From a virus (lineage: Duplodnaviria; Heunggongvirae; Uroviricota; Caudoviricetes), in the IMG/VR virus record IMGVR_UViG_2671180921_000022, positions 1 to 6,293 of that record: a stretch of DNA of 6,293 bases. One strand, 5' to 3'. The notes beneath the pieces were generated by a model, which was not told the origin of the DNA, did not search any database, and saw only the letters and a list, made by a program, of their open reading frames with translations. Shown here one piece after another: positions 1 through 6,293 of this stretch. Within the stretch, counting starts at the first letter, position 1, and every line of letters begins with the position of its first letter. Made by a program: the position numbers and the translations under genes.

Positions 1-696
1 TCACTTCGGGTAAGGCTGAATCCTGGATAGCTTGGTGTTTAGGCGCTTTTTTGCACGCTTATTCAGGAATCTGATGTAGCGATACTGATTAAATTTGTGT
101 ACCACGGCCCGCTCCTTATTAGCCCGCAAATACTCGCCTCGTTGCCCTCCGCGCTTAATCGCGTTCATCGCTATCTCGTGATACCACTCGCCGTCCAGCT
201 CGTAGAACGTGCTTTCATGGCTACCAATAAAATCAAAATTCGACGCCTGATATACCACGCCAGCACGTCCGCAGCGTTCGTCTGCAAAAGACTGAACCCA
301 CTCAACTGACGGATACAGTAACCTGATAACTTTCAGCGCGTAGCTGATAGCCCGTGATTCAGAATTGCGGGGCATGTCGTCGTGTAGCCACATGCGGTTC
401 AGTTCCATGTAACCCCGGTTATCTGTTTCAAGCACGACACGACGCCCTGAGTTGGGATTAAGGGCATATCCCCACTGAAGAACGCCAACCAGATCACGTC
501 CGCTGAATACGCCCAGATGCAGGTAGGAGTTATTCACAAAACGGCGGGAATAATGCTTTGTCTGAATGATTGTGCGGGCCAGCCAGCAGGATATGGTTTC
601 AACGCGCAACTCCTTTGAACCATAGCCGACAATCCGGCCTTCATACTCAATAACGCAGGGTTTTGTCAGAATGCGTGATTTCTTCTCTTTTCCCAC
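1..696 (-). CDS. mom: Mom-like DNA modification protein (Mu Mom family); 231 aa if started at GTG 696..694, stop TGA at 3..1
   Basis: Long minus-strand ORF directly downstream of, and overlapping by 50 nt, a clear com homologue. The track ORF (1..738) opens with TTG; the first in-frame ATG is at 726 with no Shine-Dalgarno. GTG at 696..694 has GGAG 7 nt upstream and gives 231 aa, which is the length I recall for Mu Mom. Protein identity beyond synteny and size is from memory. Confidence 0.75.
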
Positions 697-832
697 AATA
701 CAGCTCCGTGGGATGCTCTTTGGCATTCGATATGACAATGTAACGTTTACAGCGAGGGCATTTAATTTCTATATGCTTAAAACCTCCTTTAAACAGTAAC
801 TTATTGCAGTTCTTACAGCGAACAGAGTCCAT
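647..832 (-). CDS. com: Com zinc-finger translational activator of mom (61 aa)
   Basis: ATG at 832..830 preceded by AGGGAG. Product [61 protein letters not shown] has CxxC-x15-CxxC and is near-identical in pattern to remembered Mu Com (..[22 protein letters not shown]..). The track ORF start at 865 is a GTG with no RBS and is less likely. Confidence 0.85.
691..713 (-). promoter_or_regulatory. Translation-inhibition hairpin sequestering the mom start codon and Shine-Dalgarno
   Basis: Minus-strand RNA 713..691 is UCCCAC-GGAGCUGUAUU-GUGGGA: a 6-bp stem (713-708 pairs with 696-691) and an 11-nt loop. GGAG is in the loop and the GUG start forms the 5' end of the 3' arm. This matches the Com-relieved occlusion mechanism known for Mu mom. 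Confidence 0.5.
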
Positions 833-905
833 GATTCTCCCTGTGTAATAACCAGATACGACCACCCGGAGGGCTGGGGATATTTAACCACACATGATGT
901 AAAAC

Positions 906-933: not shown

Positions 934-973
934 ATAATCTATACAAAACGCTTAATTATTAACCTTTTTTGAG

Positions 974-1444
974 TCAGCTTTCTGCGGCACTCTGAGAAAG
1001 AGGCTCTGCTATCAGGGACAGCAGTCTCTCTGTCTGTTTTCTGTTTTCGAGGGTAATTGCGCAATCCCGTTTCACCTCCTCTGCATATAATCTGACACTT
1101 TCCGCACTTTTTTGTATCTGCATTGCAATCTCTTCGAACTTTTTAAGAGATTCAGGGCGCAAATCTGCATCTGTCACCGACAAAAAATCGTTAAGCGAAC
1201 CGTCCTGTGAATCTTCATAAACGCGAATGATGCCGATTTCTGAAAGGCGCTGTGCGCTCTGTGTCAGGCGAACACTGTACACGCCCGGCAGAACGGGGAA
1301 GTCGTACTCCCCGCTCTGTGTAGTGACGTGGCTGAAAACACCTTTCAGAATCCCTGCACGGTTGTGCAGGGAGGTCAGCGTGATGGTTGTGCCGCCCAGC
1401 GGTTCTCCTGTGGGCGTTTTAATCACACCTTTAAGCTGCGGCAT
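974..1444 (-). CDS. Orphan side-tail-fibre N-terminal domain protein (lambda Stf N-terminal domain-like, about 156 aa), lacking shaft and receptor-binding parts
   Basis: The product aligns by eye to the remembered lambda Stf N-terminus: LKGVIKTPTGEP vs ISGVLKDGTGKP, GVYSVRL vs GQYSVIL, IRVYEDSQDGSLNDFL vs ITVYEDSQPGTLNDFL, DLRPESLKKFEE vs DARPEVLRRLE. The ATG at 1444 has GGAG 7 nt upstream and aligns with the lambda Stf start; track ATGs at 1486 and 1471 are alternatives. The ORF overlaps the tfa stop by 14 nt. Confidence 0.7.
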   Translation of the reverse strand: MPQLKGVIKTPTGEPLGGTTITLTSLHNRAGILKGVFSHVTTQSGEYDFPVLPGVYSVRLTQSAQRLSEIGIIRVYEDSQDGSLNDFLSVTDADLRPESLKKFEEIAMQIQKSAESVRLYAEEVKRDCAITLENRKQTERLLSLIAEPLSQSAAES

Positions 1445-1961
1445 CGGGATGCTCCGGCCAGCTGATGGCATTAAGGGAGGCTTCATCAGTAACGGCGCTT
1501 AAATCCAGCGCTTTTACCGCTTTGATATACGCCATCCACTGCGCAAGACGAGCTTTGTCGTCATCACTGATGACGCCCAGCTCCAGCTCGGCTTTCCAGT
1601 CGGAGGTGATGTCCTTTGCTTCAGTCAGCAGATGCTGGCGTTGTTTTTCTGCCAGTTGCGAATAATCAACAGGAACCGGCAGCACTTCGCCGTCTTTGTA
1701 ATACCAACTGGCTTCAATGCCAAAGCCTTCCGGCAGTTCATCAACTTCCACAATGGTGAAGCCTGCCGGATAAAGACGGGACACGTCTTCTGCCATTGAA
1801 TAAATCACGCCGCTTTCAGGGTGAATGCACAATTTGTATCTCTTCGTGAATTTGTCCATGGATTCATAAAAATCCTGTCCGTCTTCACTGCGGAAATACT
1901 GAATGCCTTCACCATAAGGCATATCTTCAGGGTAGTAACGCGTAACATTTCTGAGTTCCAT
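1431..1961 (-). CDS. Tail fibre assembly chaperone (Tfa; Mu U / P2 gpG family), about 176 aa
   Basis: Product has the characteristic Tfa C-terminal region (..LGVISDDDKARLAQWMAYIKAV..SWPEHP). ATG at 1961 is preceded by AAGGAG (minus-strand TTAAGGAGAAAATAATG). It lies immediately downstream of the fibre gene. The track start at 1997 overlaps the fibre ORF and has no RBS. Confidence 0.85.
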   Translation of the reverse strand: MELRNVTRYYPEDMPYGEGIQYFRSEDGQDFYESMDKFTKRYKLCIHPESGVIYSMAEDVSRLYPAGFTIVEVDELPEGFGIEASWYYKDGEVLPVPVDYSQLAEKQRQHLLTEAKDITSDWKAELELGVISDDDKARLAQWMAYIKAVKALDLSAVTDEASLNAISWPEHPDAAA

Positions 1962-1975
1962 TATTTTCTCCTTAA

Positions 1976-2785
1976 TTAACCTGATACGGTGCGCCATGAA
2001 CCATTGATATAAATCTGCGCGGATTTGTAATACACACCACCGATGTTATCCGCCGAACTTCTTCCCGTATCCTGGACATAAATGCCTGATAACTGACAGC
2101 CTGAAGGCGCGCGAAACGTCCAGGTGATTTCGTTACCGCCCGGGTTGTAAAACACCTCATTGGTGTACTGAAAATCACGCACAGCGCCGGAATCGGTGGT
2201 GCTGATGGTGATATCACTGGTGCCATCAAACAGCACATTGTTAATCCTGCGTGCATTCTGAAGGCGGGTTGCCGTTCCGGCGTTGCCGCTGATGTTGCTG
2301 ATGGTGATATCCGAAGACAGGGCCAAACCGTTGACCCTGCGGGTATTCGGTACAGCACTATTGGCTTTATTTACCGTGTCACCTAATGAAAGTGCGTTGA
2401 TAATTTCACTGGCCGTGGTTTTTCCAAGAATACCGCGCACAAAAGCACTGAGCGGCGTTAACGCCATTGTGTCTTCGCTGGTAAAATACGGGAACGTGTT
2501 ATTCTCACCGGTTAATCCGGCAATGGCACCGGCTGAACCACTGTTCATAATAAACAGCTTTTTCAGGGCTGCCATTATCTGACCGGTATCTGCTTTATCC
2601 GGCGTTATTCCGGCTTCTTCGAGAATTTTCAGCAATTCAGACTGAATGATATTAAACCAGTCCGGCCCCGGATAGGTGGGCGGAATACCGTTCCCGCCTT
2701 CGGTGAAATAAAGCGTTGTCTGGCTTGATACTGGCGCAACAGGCGGCATCACCGGCACGCCGGTATTATTATCAACATGATACAT
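1976..2785 (-). CDS. Short tail fibre protein (269 aa): tail-collar-like N-terminus, P2 gpH-like C-terminus
   Basis: ATG at 2785. N-terminal ..YPGPDWFNIIQSELL.. resembles the conserved baseplate-attachment region of Mu S / P2 H fibres. The central ..FPYFTSEDTMALTPLSAFVRGILGK.. and the terminal ..YINGSWRTVSG resemble remembered P2 gpH (..FPYFTGNDVASLATLTKVGRDILAK.., ..YINGTWYNVAQV). Stop TAA at 1978..1976, followed by the tfa RBS. Confidence 0.8.
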   Translation of the reverse strand: MYHVDNNTGVPVMPPVAPVSSQTTLYFTEGGNGIPPTYPGPDWFNIIQSELLKILEEAGITPDKADTGQIMAALKKLFIMNSGSAGAIAGLTGENNTFPYFTSEDTMALTPLSAFVRGILGKTTASEIINALSLGDTVNKANSAVPNTRRVNGLALSSDITISNISGNAGTATRLQNARRINNVLFDGTSDITISTTDSGAVRDFQYTNEVFYNPGGNEITWTFRAPSGCQLSGIYVQDTGRSSADNIGGVYYKSAQIYINGSWRTVSG

Positions 2786-2827
2786 ATCTGATTATTTCTC
2801 CTGATATTGTGTATACAGAGATATTTA

Positions 2828-3871
2828 TTATTCAGTGGCGCTCCGTGCCTGATTAAGCAACTCCGCTGAGAAGGTCAGCTCCCCCCTTGCGAAAGGCGTT
2901 TCTCCGCCCGGTTCCGCCATAAAACTCTGTGAGACTGTGGTCCAGCTGTTTGTGTCGTATTGTGCGCCATCCTCTGTAATCATTGCGCCTTCATGGCTTC
3001 CGTTTTTCACTTTCCAGGCCAGACAGTTATTGGGTGCGTCTGCGCTGCGGTAAGTAACAGAAGCCATTACAGCAATGACATTGTTGTTACTGTTGTCCAC
3101 CGCACCAAACGTAACCTGTGCAGCCTCCGTGGAGGGTGAGAGCATCAGGTATCCGGCATCACTGTCAGATGTGTTCAGCCCCGTCACAATATCTTTGTCC
3201 AGCGAGTTTCTGGCACTCCCGCCGGAGAACGCCGTTACCGGACTGTAGCCAACCTCAACACTCCCCAGCAGTGATGGTGAGGCATCATAGTTATCACCAT
3301 ACGGCAGCGTCGCCAGGTACATATCACCCAGCATCACAGTACCGGATACACCTGACGTGAAAATACGTCCGGTATCGCCAATCCCCACCGTAACCTGGTC
3401 CACGTCATTAAAGTAAACGCGTCCGACTAACGAGCGGTTACAGTACAGGCTGGCTGACGCCCGATTACTTTCACTTAGCGCCACAAAAATCTCAAAATAG
3501 TAACTGGCTGCCTCATCAGGATACGGTGTGGTGAATGATTTACCGCCGACACGGATATACGAAGATGAATTTTTCCCCCCTTCACTTAATGTCAGACGAA
3601 AACCCATCTGTACGGCAGAGCCGCTTAAATCAGGAAGCGGAATATAAAGATAAAGAGGTCCCTGCGGCTGAAAAATCAGCCCTGTTCTTTCTGTTGTATT
3701 AACAACCTGTGTGCCACGACGAACGGATACGACAGAAGAGTTGTACATGTCACTGATAAGTGTGACGCCGTTTTCGTTCAGTGCGGAAAGAATGTTTGCC
3801 GGAGAGGGGGTCTCACACAATTCCTCATCCGCCGGAATTTGTCGGAAGCTTTCGAGTTTTATGATATTCAA
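2828..3871 (-). CDS. Hypothetical protein in the tail-fibre locus (347 aa from TTG 3871; 362 aa from TTG 3916); possible accessory receptor-binding or fibre-associated protein
   Basis: Uninterrupted minus-strand ORF with no in-frame ATG near its 5' end. TTG at 3871 is preceded by AAGGAG at 7-nt spacing, whereas TTG at 3916 overlaps the gp48-like gene and has no RBS. Ends in tandem stops TAA TAA (2830..2825). Ser/Gly/Thr/Asn/Tyr-rich like phage fibre or receptor-binding domains, but I recognise no specific family. Confidence 0.6.
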   Translation of the reverse strand: MNIIKLESFRQIPADEELCETPSPANILSALNENGVTLISDMYNSSVVSVRRGTQVVNTTERTGLIFQPQGPLYLYIPLPDLSGSAVQMGFRLTLSEGGKNSSSYIRVGGKSFTTPYPDEAASYYFEIFVALSESNRASASLYCNRSLVGRVYFNDVDQVTVGIGDTGRIFTSGVSGTVMLGDMYLATLPYGDNYDASPSLLGSVEVGYSPVTAFSGGSARNSLDKDIVTGLNTSDSDAGYLMLSPSTEAAQVTFGAVDNSNNNVIAVMASVTYRSADAPNNCLAWKVKNGSHEGAMITEDGAQYDTNSWTTVSQSFMAEPGGETPFARGELTFSAELLNQARSATE

Positions 3872-3893
3872 AGTTACTCTCCTTTTATTTTTG

Positions 3894-4817
3894 CTATTCG
3901 GATATGACCACAGCAAAATGCAGTCCCGGATGATTAATCATTAACGGTTCACTGGTTCTGTTGACTGTCTGTAATTGCATACTGTTAACCGGTACGGGGG
4001 AGCCTGTTCTGTATCCCACCTGCATCTGCGCACTGGTAATTGTCATGGGTTCAGTTGTTGGTTGACCTGAATGCAATTGTGCCCTGCTGAGCATCAGCGG
4101 TTCACCTGCCAGTGCCGGAACAACCGCAAAATGCATTCCAGCACAGTTAATCGCTACTGGATCCGCAGCTTTGTATCCGGCCTGAACCCAGGTACGGTTA
4201 ATGGACAGTGGTGGACCGGAAAGAGATTCATCATCACCATCTGTGTAAAAAAACTCATACCCTGTTCCGCCCATGCGGTAATTTTTCAGGAGACATTCCA
4301 GTTCGCGGGTCCGTTCGCTGATTAATGGCGTCATGACGTCATCAATACAGGTAAACCGACCGGCATCGTTGTCCGGGACTTCCACTTTCAGCAGCCAGCG
4401 ATACCGCGCCGGATGCAGCGGATACATGCAGTCGCGCAGGCAGTGGTGCGGCAGAACGGCCGTCACCTTTATGGTGAAGCCCAGCGCCGCAGCAGCAGCT
4501 TCAATCTGCCAGGTTGCCAGCCCGCCCTTGCGGCGGTATTTCTCAACCACAGCACGGCGACGGGCTTCCGTTGTGGTGGCGGCAATTCCGCATTCCGGCA
4601 GCGCCAGATACTGCTCCCACTCCGGCAGCAACTGGAGCGTGGTTTCCGGGCGCATCTCCACATGCAGACGCGAGGCGTCGTATTCAACGCGGGTTAAACG
4701 CTCTGCAAGCGCCCTTAAAAAACGGTTTAAATCTGCATCGTTATCACGCGGCCATGCCTTACCCCGTGGCATGACCTGTTGCAGTGCGGTCAGCCATTCC
4801 GTCACGCTGTGAGCCAT
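3894..4817 (-). CDS. Mu gp48 / P2 gpI-like baseplate-tail protein (DUF2313/YmfQ-like N-terminal about 190 aa) with an extra C-terminal repeat region of about 115 aa
   Basis: ATG at 4817. N-terminus MAHSVTEWLTALQQVMPRGKAWPRD... is typical of gpI/gp48-family proteins. Position is right after the baseplate-J-like gene, with a 16-nt overlap. The C-terminal region carries about five degenerate 15-aa repeats. Confidence 0.8.
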   Translation of the reverse strand: MAHSVTEWLTALQQVMPRGKAWPRDNDADLNRFLRALAERLTRVEYDASRLHVEMRPETTLQLLPEWEQYLALPECGIAATTTEARRRAVVEKYRRKGGLATWQIEAAAAALGFTIKVTAVLPHHCLRDCMYPLHPARYRWLLKVEVPDNDAGRFTCIDDVMTPLISERTRELECLLKNYRMGGTGYEFFYTDGDDESLSGPPLSINRTWVQAGYKAADPVAINCAGMHFAVVPALAGEPLMLSRAQLHSGQPTTEPMTITSAQMQVGYRTGSPVPVNSMQLQTVNRTSEPLMINHPGLHFAVVISE

Positions 4818-5878
4818 GTCACCACCCCGATGGTGATAAGCTCATCCACATCACTGGTGGTGTCTTCCCCGATGTTGAGGAAGTAATCCGTGATACCGGA
4901 CGTCATACCGATGGCCGTGCGCAGCGAGGACACCGGCAGCATCTGACCGGGGGCCAGCGTTTTCTGTAATGCGGTCAGGTTTGCCCGGACGGCGTTCCTG
5001 TTCGCCTGGCTGTCCGGTGTCAGACGGATGGACAGGTCGACCTTCTTCAGCCTGACCTGTACCGGCCAGACCTCGATGCCGCCCGGTTTGCCCACCATCA
5101 CCCCGGTGGCCGGGTGTTTGTGGCAGAACAGATACTGCTCCATTGTCTTCAGGTCGTCCCGTGTGGGGATAATGTCTTCACGGTCATCATAAAGCCATGC
5201 CAGCCCGACCGTGCCGGGGCCGTGCCACGCATCCCACGCCCACGCGCGGCTGACACCCGGCACTTCACGCGCCCAGATGACGTAATCATGCAGTGCACCG
5301 CCCACCGGGGGATTGCGGCGCACATACAGCAGACGGTCCAGCAGCTCTGCGATGGATTCGATGTCTGCGCCACCGGTGATGCCACTTTCAGTCACCGCGC
5401 CTGTGCTGCCCGTTCCGGGTAGCGGGGATAACAGAGTGAGCACGGCACCGGCAGCAAGATTGCCCGCCACACCGGCTTCTTCAGCCTGCACGATGACAGT
5501 GACCTCGCCGTCCTGTACCTCGCCGGATGTGAGTACCTGATACACCTGATTCGTGTCGGACTGCATCCGGGTTTCTGCCGGGATGGGGGACTGACTGGTG
5601 AAGGTCACCGGTCCGCTGGCAAAGGTGGCCTGCTTGCGGATAATCCCTTCATACGTTGCTGTTTTGATAATGGTTTCATCATCAGACGCGGTGGACGGAA
5701 TAATCTGGTCTTTAATCCAGCTCTGATGGTCGTATAAATCCCGGACCTGACTGCTGAATGACACGTTCAGCGCCTGCTCAACACTGACAGGCGGCAGCTT
5801 TTGCAGGCCGAGTTCATACGCAATATCTTTTTCGCCGTCGGCAATCAGTTTGCCCAGCGTGGGGATTTCATACGGCAT
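4802..5878 (-). CDS. Baseplate J-like protein (Mu gp47 / P2 gpJ family), 358 aa
   Basis: Long ORF between gp46-like and gpI-like genes; the size matches Mu gp47. ATG at 5878 has GGGAGG about 9 nt upstream and overlaps the gp46-like stop (TGA 5870..5868). The track start at 5911 is a TTG deeper into the upstream gene. Confidence 0.8.
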   Translation of the reverse strand: MPYEIPTLGKLIADGEKDIAYELGLQKLPPVSVEQALNVSFSSQVRDLYDHQSWIKDQIIPSTASDDETIIKTATYEGIIRKQATFASGPVTFTSQSPIPAETRMQSDTNQVYQVLTSGEVQDGEVTVIVQAEEAGVAGNLAAGAVLTLLSPLPGTGSTGAVTESGITGGADIESIAELLDRLLYVRRNPPVGGALHDYVIWAREVPGVSRAWAWDAWHGPGTVGLAWLYDDREDIIPTRDDLKTMEQYLFCHKHPATGVMVGKPGGIEVWPVQVRLKKVDLSIRLTPDSQANRNAVRANLTALQKTLAPGQMLPVSSLRTAIGMTSGITDYFLNIGEDTTSDVDELITIGVVTWLTA

Positions 5879-6293
5879 TAATGGTGGCCTCCCATCGGCG
5901 GGTGATTTCAATTGTGAGCGTGGTTTTGTCCGGGCGGGTTAACACCACCTGAAAGGCAATACGGTCAGGGACGATGATGCTGGCCGTGACGGTGGCGTTA
6001 CGGGCGTAACCGGCCCGCAGCAGCGGTTGCATGGACAGCCGCGCGTAATCTTCCACACGCAGGCGGACATCTTCCGTCAGCTTTTCACGCTCAAGCAGCC
6101 ACAGGCGGGAACCCCACGAAAAATCACTGTACGTGTCGCCCGGCCAGCCGCGCGGGTCGCCGGAACCATCAGGGATGACATCATCGTCATCAGCACGGGC
6201 ATCGGTGAAAAGGCAGATAAGAACCTGAGTGACCAGCCCCTCATCCAGCGAGAGGCCGTTATGGGTGACGGTGATGTCACCCCGTGAGAGCAT
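5868..6293 (-). CDS. Mu gp46-like baseplate protein (GP46 family), 141 aa; the start codon is the last triplet of the window, so the true 5' end cannot be confirmed
   Basis: Product contains ..DDDDVIPDGSGDPRGWPGDTYSD..GSRLWLLEREK.., matching the motif pattern I recall for the phage GP46 family (acidic stretch, GWWGD, GSRLWLL.REK). ATG at 6293..6291 gives a length typical for the family, but no upstream context is visible. Confidence 0.7.
   Translation of the reverse strand: MLSRGDITVTHNGLSLDEGLVTQVLICLFTDARADDDDVIPDGSGDPRGWPGDTYSDFSWGSRLWLLEREKLTEDVRLRVEDYARLSMQPLLRAGYARNATVTASIIVPDRIAFQVVLTRPDKTTLTIEITRRWEATINAV

What the first reader, a model, noticed from the sequence alone, without database searches (positions are those of the whole stretch)
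3894..4260. gpI/gp48-like baseplate protein has a repeat-containing C-terminal extension with a different base composition
The N-terminal ~190 aa looks like a normal gpI/gp48-family protein, but the ORF continues for ~115 more residues containing about five degenerate 15-aa repeats (PVAINCAGMHFAVV / EPLMLSRAQLHSG / EPMTITSAQMQVG / SPVPVNSMQLQTV / EPLMINHPGLHFAVV). Composition drops across the junction: a 60-nt sample in the N-domain (4441-4500) is 39/60 G+C, while a sample in the extension (3901-3960) is 26/60. This suggests a horizontally acquired add-on, perhaps a fibre-docking or beta-helical module fused to the baseplate protein.
Basis: seen in the sequence. Interest (0 to 1): 0.5.

Follow-up and report, generated by a model that had tools for sequence, protein, structure and literature searches.

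The report
Baseplate protein with adhesin-docking repeat arm
A Mu-like E. coli prophage has picked up a mobile two-part cassette, a 17-residue-repeat "arm" fused onto its baseplate protein gp48 plus a lectin-like protein gene right behind it, which most likely bolts an extra sugar-binding adhesin onto the tail.

Summary
The gp48/YmfQ gene (3894-4817, minus strand) carries about 115 extra C-terminal residues. They form six units of 17 aa, not five of 15 (autocorrelation z = 6.9 at lag 17). A 95%-identical short allele shows that window 2787-4242 is one in-frame 1456-nt insertion. It holds the repeat arm, a ribosome-binding site and a 347-aa gene (2828-3871, TTG start). A phage whose gp48 core has diverged to saturation carries the same cassette at 77-82% nt identity.

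The GC drop (0.60 to 0.50) is real but starts at codon ~150, inside the core. The short allele has it too, so it does not mark the insertion.

The repeat arm also ends other anchor proteins: three further gp48 lineages, lambda-Stf-like stubs, a P2-gpH-like N-domain and a 133-aa protein. A homologue of the 347-aa protein was in every locus examined (adjacent in all but two; one carries only degenerate units). That protein models confidently (pLDDT 90) as a ConA-like lectin/glucanase beta-sandwich.

Best reading: the arm docks a separately encoded lectin-like adhesin, much as gp38 sits on T-even fibre tips. Binding itself is inferred, and the arm's fold is unresolved (pLDDT ~30). The pair is undescribed and rare (65 of 5426 complete E. 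coli genomes, no isolated phage). It is a new variant of a known kind.

The parts
4243..4817 (-). gp48/YmfQ baseplate wedge core (codons 1-192). It includes the region aligned to the Mu gp48 fibre-docking loop (about residues 149-172).
   Evidence: PF10076 covers residues 11-191, E = 7.6e-31. phrog_203 matches. 32% identity to Mu gp48. 95% nt identity to the short allele in L005 up to nt 4243. AF2 pLDDT ~80, with a low-confidence loop at 155-164. The Mu docking loop is described in PMC11915804.
3897..4242 (-). C-terminal repeat arm (codons 193-307): an acidic linker (DGDDESLSG) followed by six 17-aa units. Stop codon TAG at 3894-3896.
   Evidence: Lag-17 autocorrelation z = 6.9. Unit table. 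dN/dS 0.28-0.39 in this frame. No Pfam, PHROG, NCBIfam or PDB sequence match. AF2 pLDDT ~30.
4164..4214 (-). Unit 1, PPLSINRTWVQAGYKAA
4104..4163 (-). Unit 2, DPVAINCAGMHFAVVPALAG. This is an internal 'cap-type' unit (IN..G.HFAVV).
   Evidence: DNA direct repeat D1 (4120-4163) is 70% identical to 3907-3950.
4053..4103 (-). Unit 3, EPLMLSRAQLHSGQPTT. Relatives carry one more unit (KPLTINRINFYAARPTA) before this one.
4002..4052 (-). Unit 4, EPMTITSAQMQVGYRTG
3951..4001 (-). Unit 5, SPVPVNSMQLQTVNRTS
3897..3950 (-). Unit 6, the terminal cap unit EPLMINHPGLHFAVVISE
   Evidence: The same kind of hydrophobic ending (…FAVV, …FAVL, …FAFV) closes most carriers; L015 and P0128 end differently.
3872..3893 (-). 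22-nt intergenic spacer with Shine-Dalgarno AAGGAG (3879-3884), 7 nt before the TTG start
   Evidence: Sequence read directly. Related loci have the same layout and a TTG start. No promoter or minus-strand terminator was found.
2828..3871 (-). 347-aa lectin-like protein, the presumed partner of the arm. The true start is TTG at 3871; the 362-aa ORF that the ORF listing reports is a mechanical artefact.
2787..4242 (-). The whole inserted cassette: arm, spacer, lectin-like gene and a 41-nt spacer
   Evidence: Absent from L005, where flanks align at 95% (4243-6293) and 88% (1130-2786). It is the only part of the window that aligns to L002, at 2843-4186 with 77-82% identity.
1976..2785 (-). 269-aa tail fibre protein. 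It is context, not part of the cassette, because it directly follows the short gp48 in L005.
   Evidence: phrog_1833 'tail fiber protein', E = 5.8e-103. L005 gene order.

Best explanation
The extension is the carrier half of a mobile two-gene accessory-adhesin cassette. One insertion (window 2787-4242) fused an arm of 17-residue repeats in frame to the C-terminus of baseplate wedge protein gp48. The repeat consensus is E-P-L-x-I-N-R-A-Q-L-Q-S-G-x-x-T-x, and the arm is closed by a hydrophobic cap unit (…G-L-H-F-A-V-V). The same insertion brought a translationally linked gene for a 347-aa protein with a ConA-like lectin/glucanase fold.

Proposed mechanism: each of the six gp48 copies in the baseplate projects one arm. 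The arm binds, and probably folds upon, the lectin-like protein. The virion thereby gains six peripheral sugar-binding or sugar-cleaving adhesins. These add to the ordinary 269-aa fibre, which still docks on the gp48 core loop.

Shown here:
- the repeat architecture;
- the insertion boundaries;
- horizontal sharing of the cassette;
- purifying selection on the arm;
- co-occurrence of arm and partner across unrelated anchors;
- the partner's fold.

Inferred:
- physical binding of arm to partner;
- presence of the partner in the virion;
- stoichiometry;
- a receptor-binding role.
For: 1. Insertion. The window aligns to the short-allele locus L005 at 95% (4243-6293) and 88% (1130-2786), with 2787-4242 absent from L005.
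2. Mobility. Only the cassette aligns with L002 (77-82% nt). Between the window and L002, synonymous sites are saturated in the gp48 core (pS 0.74) but dS is only 0.40 in the arm.
3. The arm is translated and constrained: dN/dS 0.28-0.39.
4. An exhaustive profile search of 1.84 billion proteins found only 9 representatives. Besides gp48 lineages they are lambda-Stf-type stubs (PF08400 + PF03406), a P2-gpH-type N-domain (PF12571) and a 133-aa protein. In all of them the repeats sit at the extreme C-terminus.
5. Co-occurrence starting from arm carriers. A homologue of the 347-aa protein (44-73% identical) follows 12-30 nt after the carrier in L001, L002-4, L006, L007-9, L010, L011, L012 and L020.
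6. Co-occurrence starting from distant partner homologues. An arm lies upstream in L015 and in L017, where the ORF was not called. In L013 the only candidate is a 64-aa ORF with two degenerate units.
7. Scans. Of 27 loci (26 IMG/VR, 1 GTDB), 25 have an arm-ending ORF 22-30 nt upstream. The other two have the arm 1.4 kb upstream with the gene order permuted.
8. In L015, L010 and L017 no distal fibre or chaperone gene follows. The stub would therefore have no receptor-binding part unless the lectin-like protein supplies it.
10. In Mu, gp48 is the protein that anchors the fibre (PMC11915804), so a second attachment site on gp48 is structurally plausible.
11. The arm alone gives no confident fold (pLDDT ~30), which fits folding on a partner.
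Against: - No direct evidence of binding.
- Stf-type and gpH-type carriers are trimers, whereas gp48 is one copy per wedge. One docking mode has to serve both, and this is unexplained.
- The partner is conserved along its whole length (44-73% identity across carriers), with no hypervariable tip. That is less variable than typical host-range adhesins.
- Divergence of the arms and of their partners is not obviously correlated. L006 has a diverged arm but a 70%-identical partner; L007 has a closer arm but a 59%-identical partner.
- 68-120 residues is long for a mere docking peptide.
- The low pLDDT of the arm could simply reflect the shallow alignment (about 6 sequences).
- Many of the loci counted are near-identical, so the number of independent associations is about 8-10 carrier types, not 38.
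Confidence: 0.55

Rival explanations
1. The repeat arm is itself the functional appendage, a short fibre or beta-spiral that contacts the cell. The downstream 347-aa protein would be its dedicated folding chaperone, like Tfa or gp57A, and need not be in the virion.
For: Fibre chaperones are typically encoded directly downstream of the C-terminal region they fold. The arm does not fold on its own in AF2. The partner is evenly conserved rather than tip-variable. The repeats sit at the C-termini of trimeric fibre stubs.
Against: The 347-aa protein shows no similarity to Caudo_TAP, GP38 or other chaperone families. It has a two-domain lectin/glucanase-type fold typical of binding or cleaving modules. 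Whole-length structural relatives include a protein annotated as a virion structural protein. A monomeric gp48 cannot form a trimeric fibre, since there is one gp48 per wedge (PMC11915804). The arm sequence is too conserved and too low in complexity to explain any receptor specificity.
Confidence: 0.17
2. The arm docks the ordinary tail fibre (the 269-aa protein) or lengthens its attachment, and the 347-aa protein is an unrelated passenger.
For: In the window, L001, L002, L006 and L007 a fibre gene and a chaperone gene follow the lectin-like gene.
Against: The same 269-aa fibre (88% nt identity) sits directly after the short gp48 in L005, with neither arm nor partner. The arm and the partner occur together where no fibre follows, in L010, L015, L017 and L020. 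The arm co-occurs with the 347-aa family, not with any one fibre family.
Confidence: 0.08
3. The partner is an enzyme rather than a lectin: a jelly-roll polysaccharide lyase or glycanase acting as a capsule or O-antigen depolymerase, tethered to the baseplate by the arm. This is a variant of the best explanation.
Against: Non-catalytic CBMs and lectin domains give equally good hits. Identity is 6-12%, and no catalytic residues were mapped.
Confidence: 0.15
4. The extension is a non-functional read-through or fusion relic in a decaying prophage.
For: The prophage shows decay nearby: the second fibre gene is truncated. PGAP annotates such genes as truncated pseudogenes. Deletion chimeras exist (P0117 and P0120).
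Against: The ORF is intact in several lineages, with dN/dS 0.28-0.39. The arm is conserved on at least seven different anchors. The B7A 'pseudogene' is in fact an intact 319-aa ORF.
Confidence: 0.03

Closest known systems
Bacteriophage Mu gp48 (baseplate wedge protein 3; Pfam PF10076 / YmfQ family)
   Same: The N-terminal 196 residues are homologous (32% identity, E = 8e-30). The gene sits in the same place after gp46 and gp47. In Mu this protein anchors the trimeric fibre through a docking loop (PMC11915804), so it is an attachment platform.
   Different: Mu gp48 is 180 aa and ends where the arm begins. About 97% of listed homologues are 173-210 aa. The 111-residue repeat arm and its partner gene have no counterpart in Mu.
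Gp38 adhesins on T2/S16-type long tail fibre tips (Straboviridae)
   Same: It works alike in outline. A separately encoded, monomeric receptor-binding protein, with its gene close after the carrier gene, attaches non-covalently to the C-terminal end of a structural carrier. Gp38 is described as monomeric and modular in PMC12032242.
   Different: There is no sequence similarity: GP38 (PF05268) is not hit. The partner has a ConA-like fold rather than the gp38 polyglycine-sandwich. The carrier end is a 17-aa repeat arm rather than the gp37 tip. The carrier here can be a baseplate wedge protein.
Accessory carbohydrate-binding baseplate proteins of siphophages (for example Tuc2009 BppA on BppU)
   Same: An optional extra carbohydrate-binding module is added to the baseplate periphery next to the main receptor-binding protein. 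It is present in some relatives and absent in others (PMC4742702, title and abstract only).
   Different: The phage type (Gram-positive siphophage) and the proteins are different, and no repeat arm is involved. The resemblance is functional only.
Lambda Stf-type side tail fibre stubs (PF08400 phage_tail_N + PF03406 Phage_fiber_2)
   Same: These proteins carry the same 17-aa repeat arm at their C-termini and are followed by the same partner gene (P0125, P0126, L015, L017).
   Different: The anchor domain is unrelated to gp48 and is trimeric. In the window the equivalent gene (974-1486) is only a truncated remnant without an arm.
Triple beta-spiral / beta-helix fibre shafts (adenovirus fibre, reovirus sigma1, phage fibre repeats PF03335 and PF03406)
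   Same: Short (15-20 aa) repeats with alternating hydrophobic positions and a turn-forming Gly or Pro. This is recalled from general knowledge and was not tested.
   Different: No sequence match to any fibre-repeat family. No confident fold was obtained. gp48 is monomeric in the wedge, so an obligate trimeric shaft is unlikely in this context.

Membership tests
Mu gp48 / YmfQ baseplate wedge subunit (PF10076) | Significant match to the family profile | tested here: met
   PF10076 at 107 bits against a cutoff of 37.4, residues 11-191. phrog_203, E = 6.8e-63. BLASTP to Mu gp48, E = 8e-30.
Mu gp48 / YmfQ baseplate wedge subunit (PF10076) | Gene directly downstream of the gp46 (GP46) and gp47 (Baseplate_J) genes in a contractile-tail operon | tested here: met
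   Baseplate_J gene at 4802-5911 and the gp46-like gene at 5868-6293. L001 and L005 have the same order.
Mu gp48 / YmfQ baseplate wedge subunit (PF10076) | Single-domain protein of about 175-200 aa | tested here: not met
   The protein is 307 aa, and the profile ends at residue 191. Only 4 of about 116 listed homologues are longer than 300 aa. It is a member with an added module, not a canonical member.
Mu gp48 / YmfQ baseplate wedge subunit (PF10076) | Fibre-docking loop that binds the N-terminus of the trimeric fibre | not testable with these tools
   The region aligned to Mu residues 133-155 is present (window ~149-172) and is a low-confidence loop in the model. Binding cannot be tested.
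Known phage fibre repeat families (PF03335 Phage_fiber, PF03406 Phage_fiber_2, collar/fibre repeats) | Profile match of the repeat region | tested here: not met
   No Pfam, PHROG or NCBIfam hit on residues 196-307. There is no PDB sequence hit; the best E-value is 1.2.
Beta-helix / beta-spiral fibre shaft | Confidently predicted elongated beta-solenoid or spiral fold; trimeric state | tested here: inconclusive
   The AF2 monomer model gives pLDDT ~30 over residues 196-307, with scattered short strands.
Carrier-tip plus separately encoded adhesin systems (gp37/gp38-like logic) | The adhesin gene is tightly linked to the carrier's C-terminal module and always co-occurs with it | tested here: met
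   The arm and the 347-aa family were found together in every locus examined. They are adjacent in all but two loci, and in L013 only degenerate units are present.
Carrier-tip plus separately encoded adhesin systems (gp37/gp38-like logic) | Homology to GP38 (PF05268 / PF21721) | tested here: not met
   No Pfam hit for the 347-aa protein. The resemblance is therefore functional, not membership.
Carrier-tip plus separately encoded adhesin systems (gp37/gp38-like logic) | Physical complex of carrier end and adhesin in the virion | not testable with these tools
   This needs complex prediction, pull-down, virion proteomics or cryo-EM.
Concanavalin A-like lectin/glucanase fold (for the 347-aa partner) | Beta-sandwich jelly-roll superposable on family members | tested here: met
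Concanavalin A-like lectin/glucanase fold (for the 347-aa partner) | Conserved sugar-binding or catalytic residues | not tested
   Identity to the hits is 6-18%, and no site mapping was done.
Tail fibre assembly chaperones (PF02413 Caudo_TAP) | Profile match | tested here: not met
   The 347-aa protein has no hit. The separate gene at 1431-1997 is the Caudo_TAP member, E = 1.1e-20.

The most novel reading that the evidence does not exclude
The 17-residue repeat arm and its ConA-like partner are a previously unrecognised, self-contained 'plug-and-socket' system for hanging a monomeric sugar-binding (or sugar-cleaving) adhesin on phage tails. The system would be portable enough to work on a monomeric baseplate wedge protein, on trimeric side-fibre stubs of lambdoid phages, on P2-type fibre N-domains and on a tiny stand-alone anchor in a phage contig that also carries gp38-type adhesin genes. 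In the window it would give a Mu-like phage a second, fibre-independent receptor-binding system attached directly to gp48. Unit number (3-7) would tune reach, and the two cap-type units might allow two adhesins per arm.
Probability: 0.4. Interest if true: 0.65.

Novelty: new variant of a known kind. Interest (0 to 1): 0.52.

Why it matters
Host range in tailed phages is set by exchangeable receptor-binding parts, and knowing the connectors is what makes those parts engineerable. If the repeat arm is a docking socket for a lectin-like adhesin, it is a compact connector that nature has already moved between at least three unrelated kinds of tail anchor. One of those anchors is a baseplate wedge protein, where such fusions are not known to have been described.

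That would offer a way to add a second binding specificity to Mu-like phages, tailocins or lambdoid phages without touching their main fibres. It would also assign a role to an orphan family (phrog_8291).

There is a practical annotation lesson too. NCBI's pipeline marks intact extended gp48 genes as truncated pseudogenes and leaves the arm unannotated (E. coli B7A), so this module is systematically invisible in genome records.

Tried and rejected
- **Word-indexed search with the arm alone.** It returned only one partial protein because the index found 3 candidates. It was superseded by the exhaustive profile search.
- **AF2 of the full protein with a 41-sequence alignment.** The N-domain was acceptable, but the arm had pLDDT ~30, so no fold search was run on it.
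- **PDB sequence searches with profiles of the arm and of the partner.** Nothing meaningful turned up (E = 0.49 and 1.2).
- **tblastn of the arm and the partner against 50,697 phage records.** No match, so no isolated phage is available for comparison.
- **NCBIfam.** Nothing.
- **Tandem Repeats Finder on the DNA.** No array, because the units are too diverged at nucleotide level. Only units 2 and 6 pair, at 70%.
- **Rfam and promoter/terminator scans.** No RNA family, no promoter, and no minus-strand terminator in or around the cassette. An RNA or regulatory reading of the region is therefore rejected.
- **Composition as a marker of the insertion.** Rejected, because the break is at codon ~150 and is also present in the short allele.
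- **The 362-aa ORF that overlaps the gp48 stop.** Rejected as a mechanical ORF call. The real start is TTG at 3871 behind an AAGGAG.
- **P0129 (2139 aa, E = 8e-4).** Judged a chance match between unrelated repeats.
- **GTDB species-representative scan.** It gave a single locus (E. albertii), so it added little beyond showing a narrow distribution.
- **P0123 context look-up.** Not on record.
- **Literature searches.** No description of this arm or of phrog_8291 was found.
Full report
**Setting**

The window is the right end of a Mu-like prophage of E. coli, and all genes are on the minus strand.

| Gene | Coordinates | Note |
|---|---|---|
| gp46-like | 5868-6293 | cut by the window end |
| gp47 / Baseplate_J | 4802-5911 | |
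| gp48 / YmfQ | 3894-4817 | 307 aa |
| unannotated protein | 2828-3871 | 347 aa |
| tail fibre protein | 1976-2785 | 269 aa |
| tail fibre assembly protein | 1431-1997 | |
| phage_tail_N fibre gene | 974-1486 | truncated remnant |
| com | 647-865 | |
| mom | 1-738 | |

Only com and mom resemble Mu at DNA level (88-89%). A protein 100% identical to the 347-aa product is recorded from E. coli (P0130).

**Checking the observation**

*Length.* The ORF is 307 aa. Pfam PF10076 (Phage_Mu_Gp48) covers only residues 11-191. Mu gp48 itself is 180 aa, 32% identical, and its last residues (…YHDGDN) align with window residues 191-196 (…YTDGDD). Among the ~116 PF10076 homologues listed, all but four are 173-210 aa. 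The long ones are P0001 (324 aa) and P0090, P0105 and P0114 (319-321 aa).

*Repeats.* BLOSUM62 autocorrelation over residues 200-307 has a single sharp peak at lag 17 (z = 6.9). No lag in 2000 shuffles exceeded 5.2, and the N-domain control reaches 2.0. However, the period is 17 residues, not 15, and there is a sixth unit upstream. The units are:

1. PPLSINRTWVQAGYKAA
2. DPVAINCAGMHFAVVPALAG
3. EPLMLSRAQLHSGQPTT
4. EPMTITSAQMQVGYRTG
5. SPVPVNSMQLQTVNRTS
6. EPLMINHPGLHFAVVISE

. Relatives carry a seventh unit, KPLTINRINFYAARPTA, between units 2 and 3. At DNA level only units 2 and 6 still pair (70% over 44 nt). Both are of the 'cap' type (IN..G.HFAVV). Tandem Repeats Finder sees nothing.

GC is 0.59-0.61 from gp46 to gp48 codon 150. 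It is 0.48-0.51 from codon 151 all the way to mom. The extension is 0.50 and the 347-aa gene 0.51. The short 194-aa allele in L005 shows the same internal drop, 0.61 to 0.51. The break at codon ~150 coincides with the start of the stretch that aligns to the Mu gp48 fibre-docking loop (Mu residues 133-155; PMC11915804). There, identity to L005 also falls from 95% to 85%. The break therefore looks like the old boundary between the baseplate module and the host-range module, not the edge of the add-on.

**What the extension is part of**

A Logan contig (L005) carries a gp48 of 194 aa that is 95% identical in its N-domain (P0002). Its gene order is gp46, gp47, gp48, the 269-aa fibre, TFA, a 464-aa phage_tail_N fibre, DUF4376, com, mom.

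BLASTN of the window against L005 gives 95% identity for 4243-6293 and 88% for 1130-2786. Nothing in L005 corresponds to 2787-4242, apart from about 12 nt that hold its last codons and stop. So one 1456-nt block is inserted in frame at codon ~192. The block contains the repeat arm, a 22-nt spacer with AAGGAG, the 347-aa gene starting at TTG 3871, and a 41-nt spacer. The 362-aa ORF listed mechanically overstates the gene. Homologues start MNIIKLE at the corresponding TTG.

The same block is the only part of the window that aligns with L002. That locus is a different Mu-type tail cluster whose gp48 N-domain is only about 30% identical (window 2843-4186, 77-82% nt). Between the window and L002, synonymous sites are saturated in the core but dS is 0.40 in the arm. 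Between the window and L001 the order is reversed: core dS 0.22, arm 0.50, partner gene 0.91. The region is mosaic, and the cassette moves independently of the gp48 core. dN/dS in the arm is 0.28-0.39, against 0.08 in the core and 0.19-0.26 in the partner, so the arm is translated and under constraint. No promoter, minus-strand terminator or Rfam family lies in the region.

**Where else the arm occurs**

A profile of the arm was searched against 1.84 billion representative proteins. It found nine at E <= 0.001, and one of them (P0129) is an unrelated repeat protein. The rest are listed below.

| Protein(s) | Kind of carrier |
|---|---|
| P0124 (388 aa) | a third gp48 lineage, with a weak Ig-like (Big_13) match (E = 0.006, below Pfam's cutoff) before the arm |
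| P0125, P0126 | lambda-Stf-type stubs (PF08400 + PF03406, then arm) |
| P0123 | fibre fragment (PF03406, then arm) |
| P0127 | P2-gpH-type N-domain (PF12571, then arm) |
| P0128 | 133-aa protein that is little more than an arm |
| P0121, P0122 | two partial proteins |

The arm is always at the extreme C-terminus, with 3-7 units. The consensus is E-P-L-[VT]-I-N-R-A-Q-L-Q-S-G-x-x-T-x. Pro2 is invariant by the way units were picked. Leu3, Ile5, Asn6 and Leu10 dominate. The last unit usually ends in an aromatic/hydrophobic run such as FAVV, FAVL or FAFV. No Pfam, PHROG, NCBIfam or PDB sequence matches the arm.

**The constant companion**

*Starting from arm carriers.* In every context retrieved, the next gene encodes a homologue of the window's 347-aa protein.

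| Locus | Carrier | Identity of partner to the window's |
|---|---|---|
| L001 | gp48 | 73% |
| L002-4 | gp48 | 72% |
| L012 (E. coli B7A) | gp48 | not computed |
| L007-9 | gp48 lineage C | 59% |
| L006 | Stf stub | 70% |
| L010 | Stf stub | 51% |
| L011 | gpH-type | 62% |
| L020 | 133-aa anchor, on a phage contig with gp38-like genes | 44% |

The gap is 12-30 nt, and the partner's start codon is TTG in the window, L002, L006, L007, L010, L011 and L012.

*Starting from distant partner homologues.*
- L015 lies at the stf position of a lambdoid prophage (J, lom, stub). Its stub ends in four near-identical units and is followed by the partner, with no Tfa.
- L017 (Raoultella) has an uncalled stub ORF with five units right before the partner.
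- L013 has a 64-aa ORF with two degenerate units.

*Scans.* A scan of IMG/VR plus one GTDB hit added 27 loci. In 25 of them an arm-ending ORF stops 22-30 nt before the partner. In the other two (L028, L029) the arm-bearing gp48 lies 1.4 kb upstream and the order is gp48-arm, fibre, TFA, partner.

Many of these loci are near-identical. A fair count is 8-10 independent carrier types, all coupled to the partner. By contrast, the 269-aa fibre occurs without arm or partner in L005, and the arm and partner occur without any following fibre in L010, L015, L017 and L020.

**The partner**

With a 25-sequence alignment, AlphaFold2 gives pLDDT 90.3 and pTM 0.86 for an all-beta, two-domain protein.

- Foldseek agrees, hitting legume lectins and botulinum toxin HC domains.
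- Against BFVD there are whole-length matches (TM 0.56-0.68, 10-14% identity) to uncharacterised siphophage proteins. One is annotated 'virion structural protein'.
- By sequence it is phrog_8291, function unknown. It has no Pfam, NCBIfam or PDB hit.
- Neither it nor the arm matches any of 50,697 phage records.
- The cassette is in 65 of 5426 complete E. coli genomes, and 55 of these cover at least 80% of it. It appears in one GTDB species representative, E. albertii.

**Mechanism**

In Mu each wedge holds one gp46, two gp47 and one gp48, and the fibre's N-terminus is anchored on a loop of gp48 (PMC11915804). The window's gp48 keeps that core, so the 269-aa fibre probably docks as usual.

I infer that the added arm is a second attachment device that holds the lectin-like protein. 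The logic resembles that of the monomeric Gp38 adhesins at the tips of T2/S16-type long fibres (PMC12032242) and of accessory carbohydrate-binding baseplate proteins such as Tuc2009 BppA (PMC4742702). The argument has four parts:
- strict genetic coupling across unrelated anchors;
- stubs that would otherwise lack any receptor-binding part;
- a partner with a carbohydrate-recognition fold and virion-protein relatives;
- an arm that does not fold on its own (pLDDT ~30).

The weak points are real:
- No binding evidence exists.
- The same arm sits on trimeric stubs and on a monomeric wedge protein.
- The partner lacks a hypervariable tip.
- Arm and partner divergence do not obviously track each other.
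- The poor arm model may only reflect a shallow alignment.

The main rival is that the arm is the appendage and the partner is its chaperone. I give it 0.17, mainly because of the partner's fold and the monomeric state of gp48.

**Known or new**

The N-domain is an ordinary Mu gp48/YmfQ member. The arm matches no described family. The partner is an orphan PHROG. No paper found in three searches describes either. Modular, non-covalently attached receptor-binding proteins are a known kind. This particular connector, and its direct fusion to a baseplate wedge subunit, is a new variant.

Annotation pipelines miss it. In E. coli B7A the intact 319-aa gene is annotated as a YmfQ pseudogene 'missing C-terminus', and the arm is left unannotated.

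**Verdict**

- The 'acquired add-on' interpretation is supported.
- 'Docking' is plausible, but for a lectin-like adhesin rather than a fibre.
- 'Beta-helical' is unsupported.
- Interest is moderate. The finding is concrete, testable and useful for engineering, but it lies within the known logic of modular phage host-range determinants.

Noticed in passing
window 959-1129 and ORF 974-1486 (minus strand): The second fibre gene (phage_tail_N, 464 aa in L005) is reduced to a 170-aa remnant, and the DUF4376 gene behind it is missing. About 1.65 kb of L005 (12245-13896) is replaced by 171 nt. This prophage has therefore lost one fibre set while carrying the lectin cassette. L001 has the same remnant, annotated as a pseudogene.
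   Followed up: partly
window 4321-4368 (gp48 codons ~150-165): The GC/GC3 break (0.61 to 0.48) and a fall in identity to the short allele (95% to 85%) both begin where the sequence aligns with the Mu gp48 fibre-docking loop. An imperfect palindrome (4321-4346, ATTAATGGCGTCATGACGTCATCAAT) lies there. This may be the old recombination boundary of the host-range module.
   Followed up: partly
window 3869-3871; L002 10989, L006 1260, L007 7190, L010 1534, L011 2095, L012 8045: The lectin-like gene starts with TTG in seven of the contexts checked, always 6-9 nt after a purine-rich Shine-Dalgarno and 22-30 nt after the carrier's stop. This suggests deliberately low or coupled translation.
   Followed up: partly
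L012 8069-9028 (E. coli B7A, NZ_CP035812.1): NCBI PGAP annotates the intact 319-aa extended gp48 as a YmfQ pseudogene 'missing C-terminus' (585 nt) and leaves the ~375-nt repeat arm unannotated. This is a systematic annotation blind spot for the module.
   Followed up: yes
P0117 and P0120: These are deletion chimeras. P0117 joins a gp47 (Baseplate_J) fragment directly to the repeat arm. P0120 joins the first 58 residues of this gp48 to the C-terminal part of the tail fibre assembly protein. Both indicate frequent rearrangement in this region of decaying prophages.
   Followed up: no
L028 and L029 (IMG/VR), 1569-5044: A fourth gp48 lineage carries an arm (ending …LHFAVITEP) with the genes in a different order: gp48-arm, 267-aa fibre, TFA, then the lectin-like gene. 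Adjacency is therefore usual but not obligatory.
   Followed up: partly
L020 5001-6463 (Logan ERR10789655): A 133-aa stand-alone protein made of a 50-residue N-terminus plus four repeat units is followed by a 44%-identical partner. The contig also carries a Peptidase_S74 fibre and gp38-like adhesin genes. The pair is thus not confined to temperate Mu-like or lambdoid elements.
   Followed up: partly
window 647-865 and 1-738; compare L019 (Mu) 8093-8674: com and mom are 88-89% identical to Mu, but there is no gin invertase or invertible G segment between the fibre genes and com. Host-range switching by inversion is absent in this relative.
   Followed up: no
L013 4794-4988: In one lambdoid locus, the gene before a 43%-identical partner is a 64-aa ORF with only two degenerate repeat-like units (LPLVIKHAVVSVGHENV and LPVLTGRTWLTYLIQN). 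The Stf stub upstream ends in a different domain. This may be a split or decayed form of the arm.
   Followed up: no
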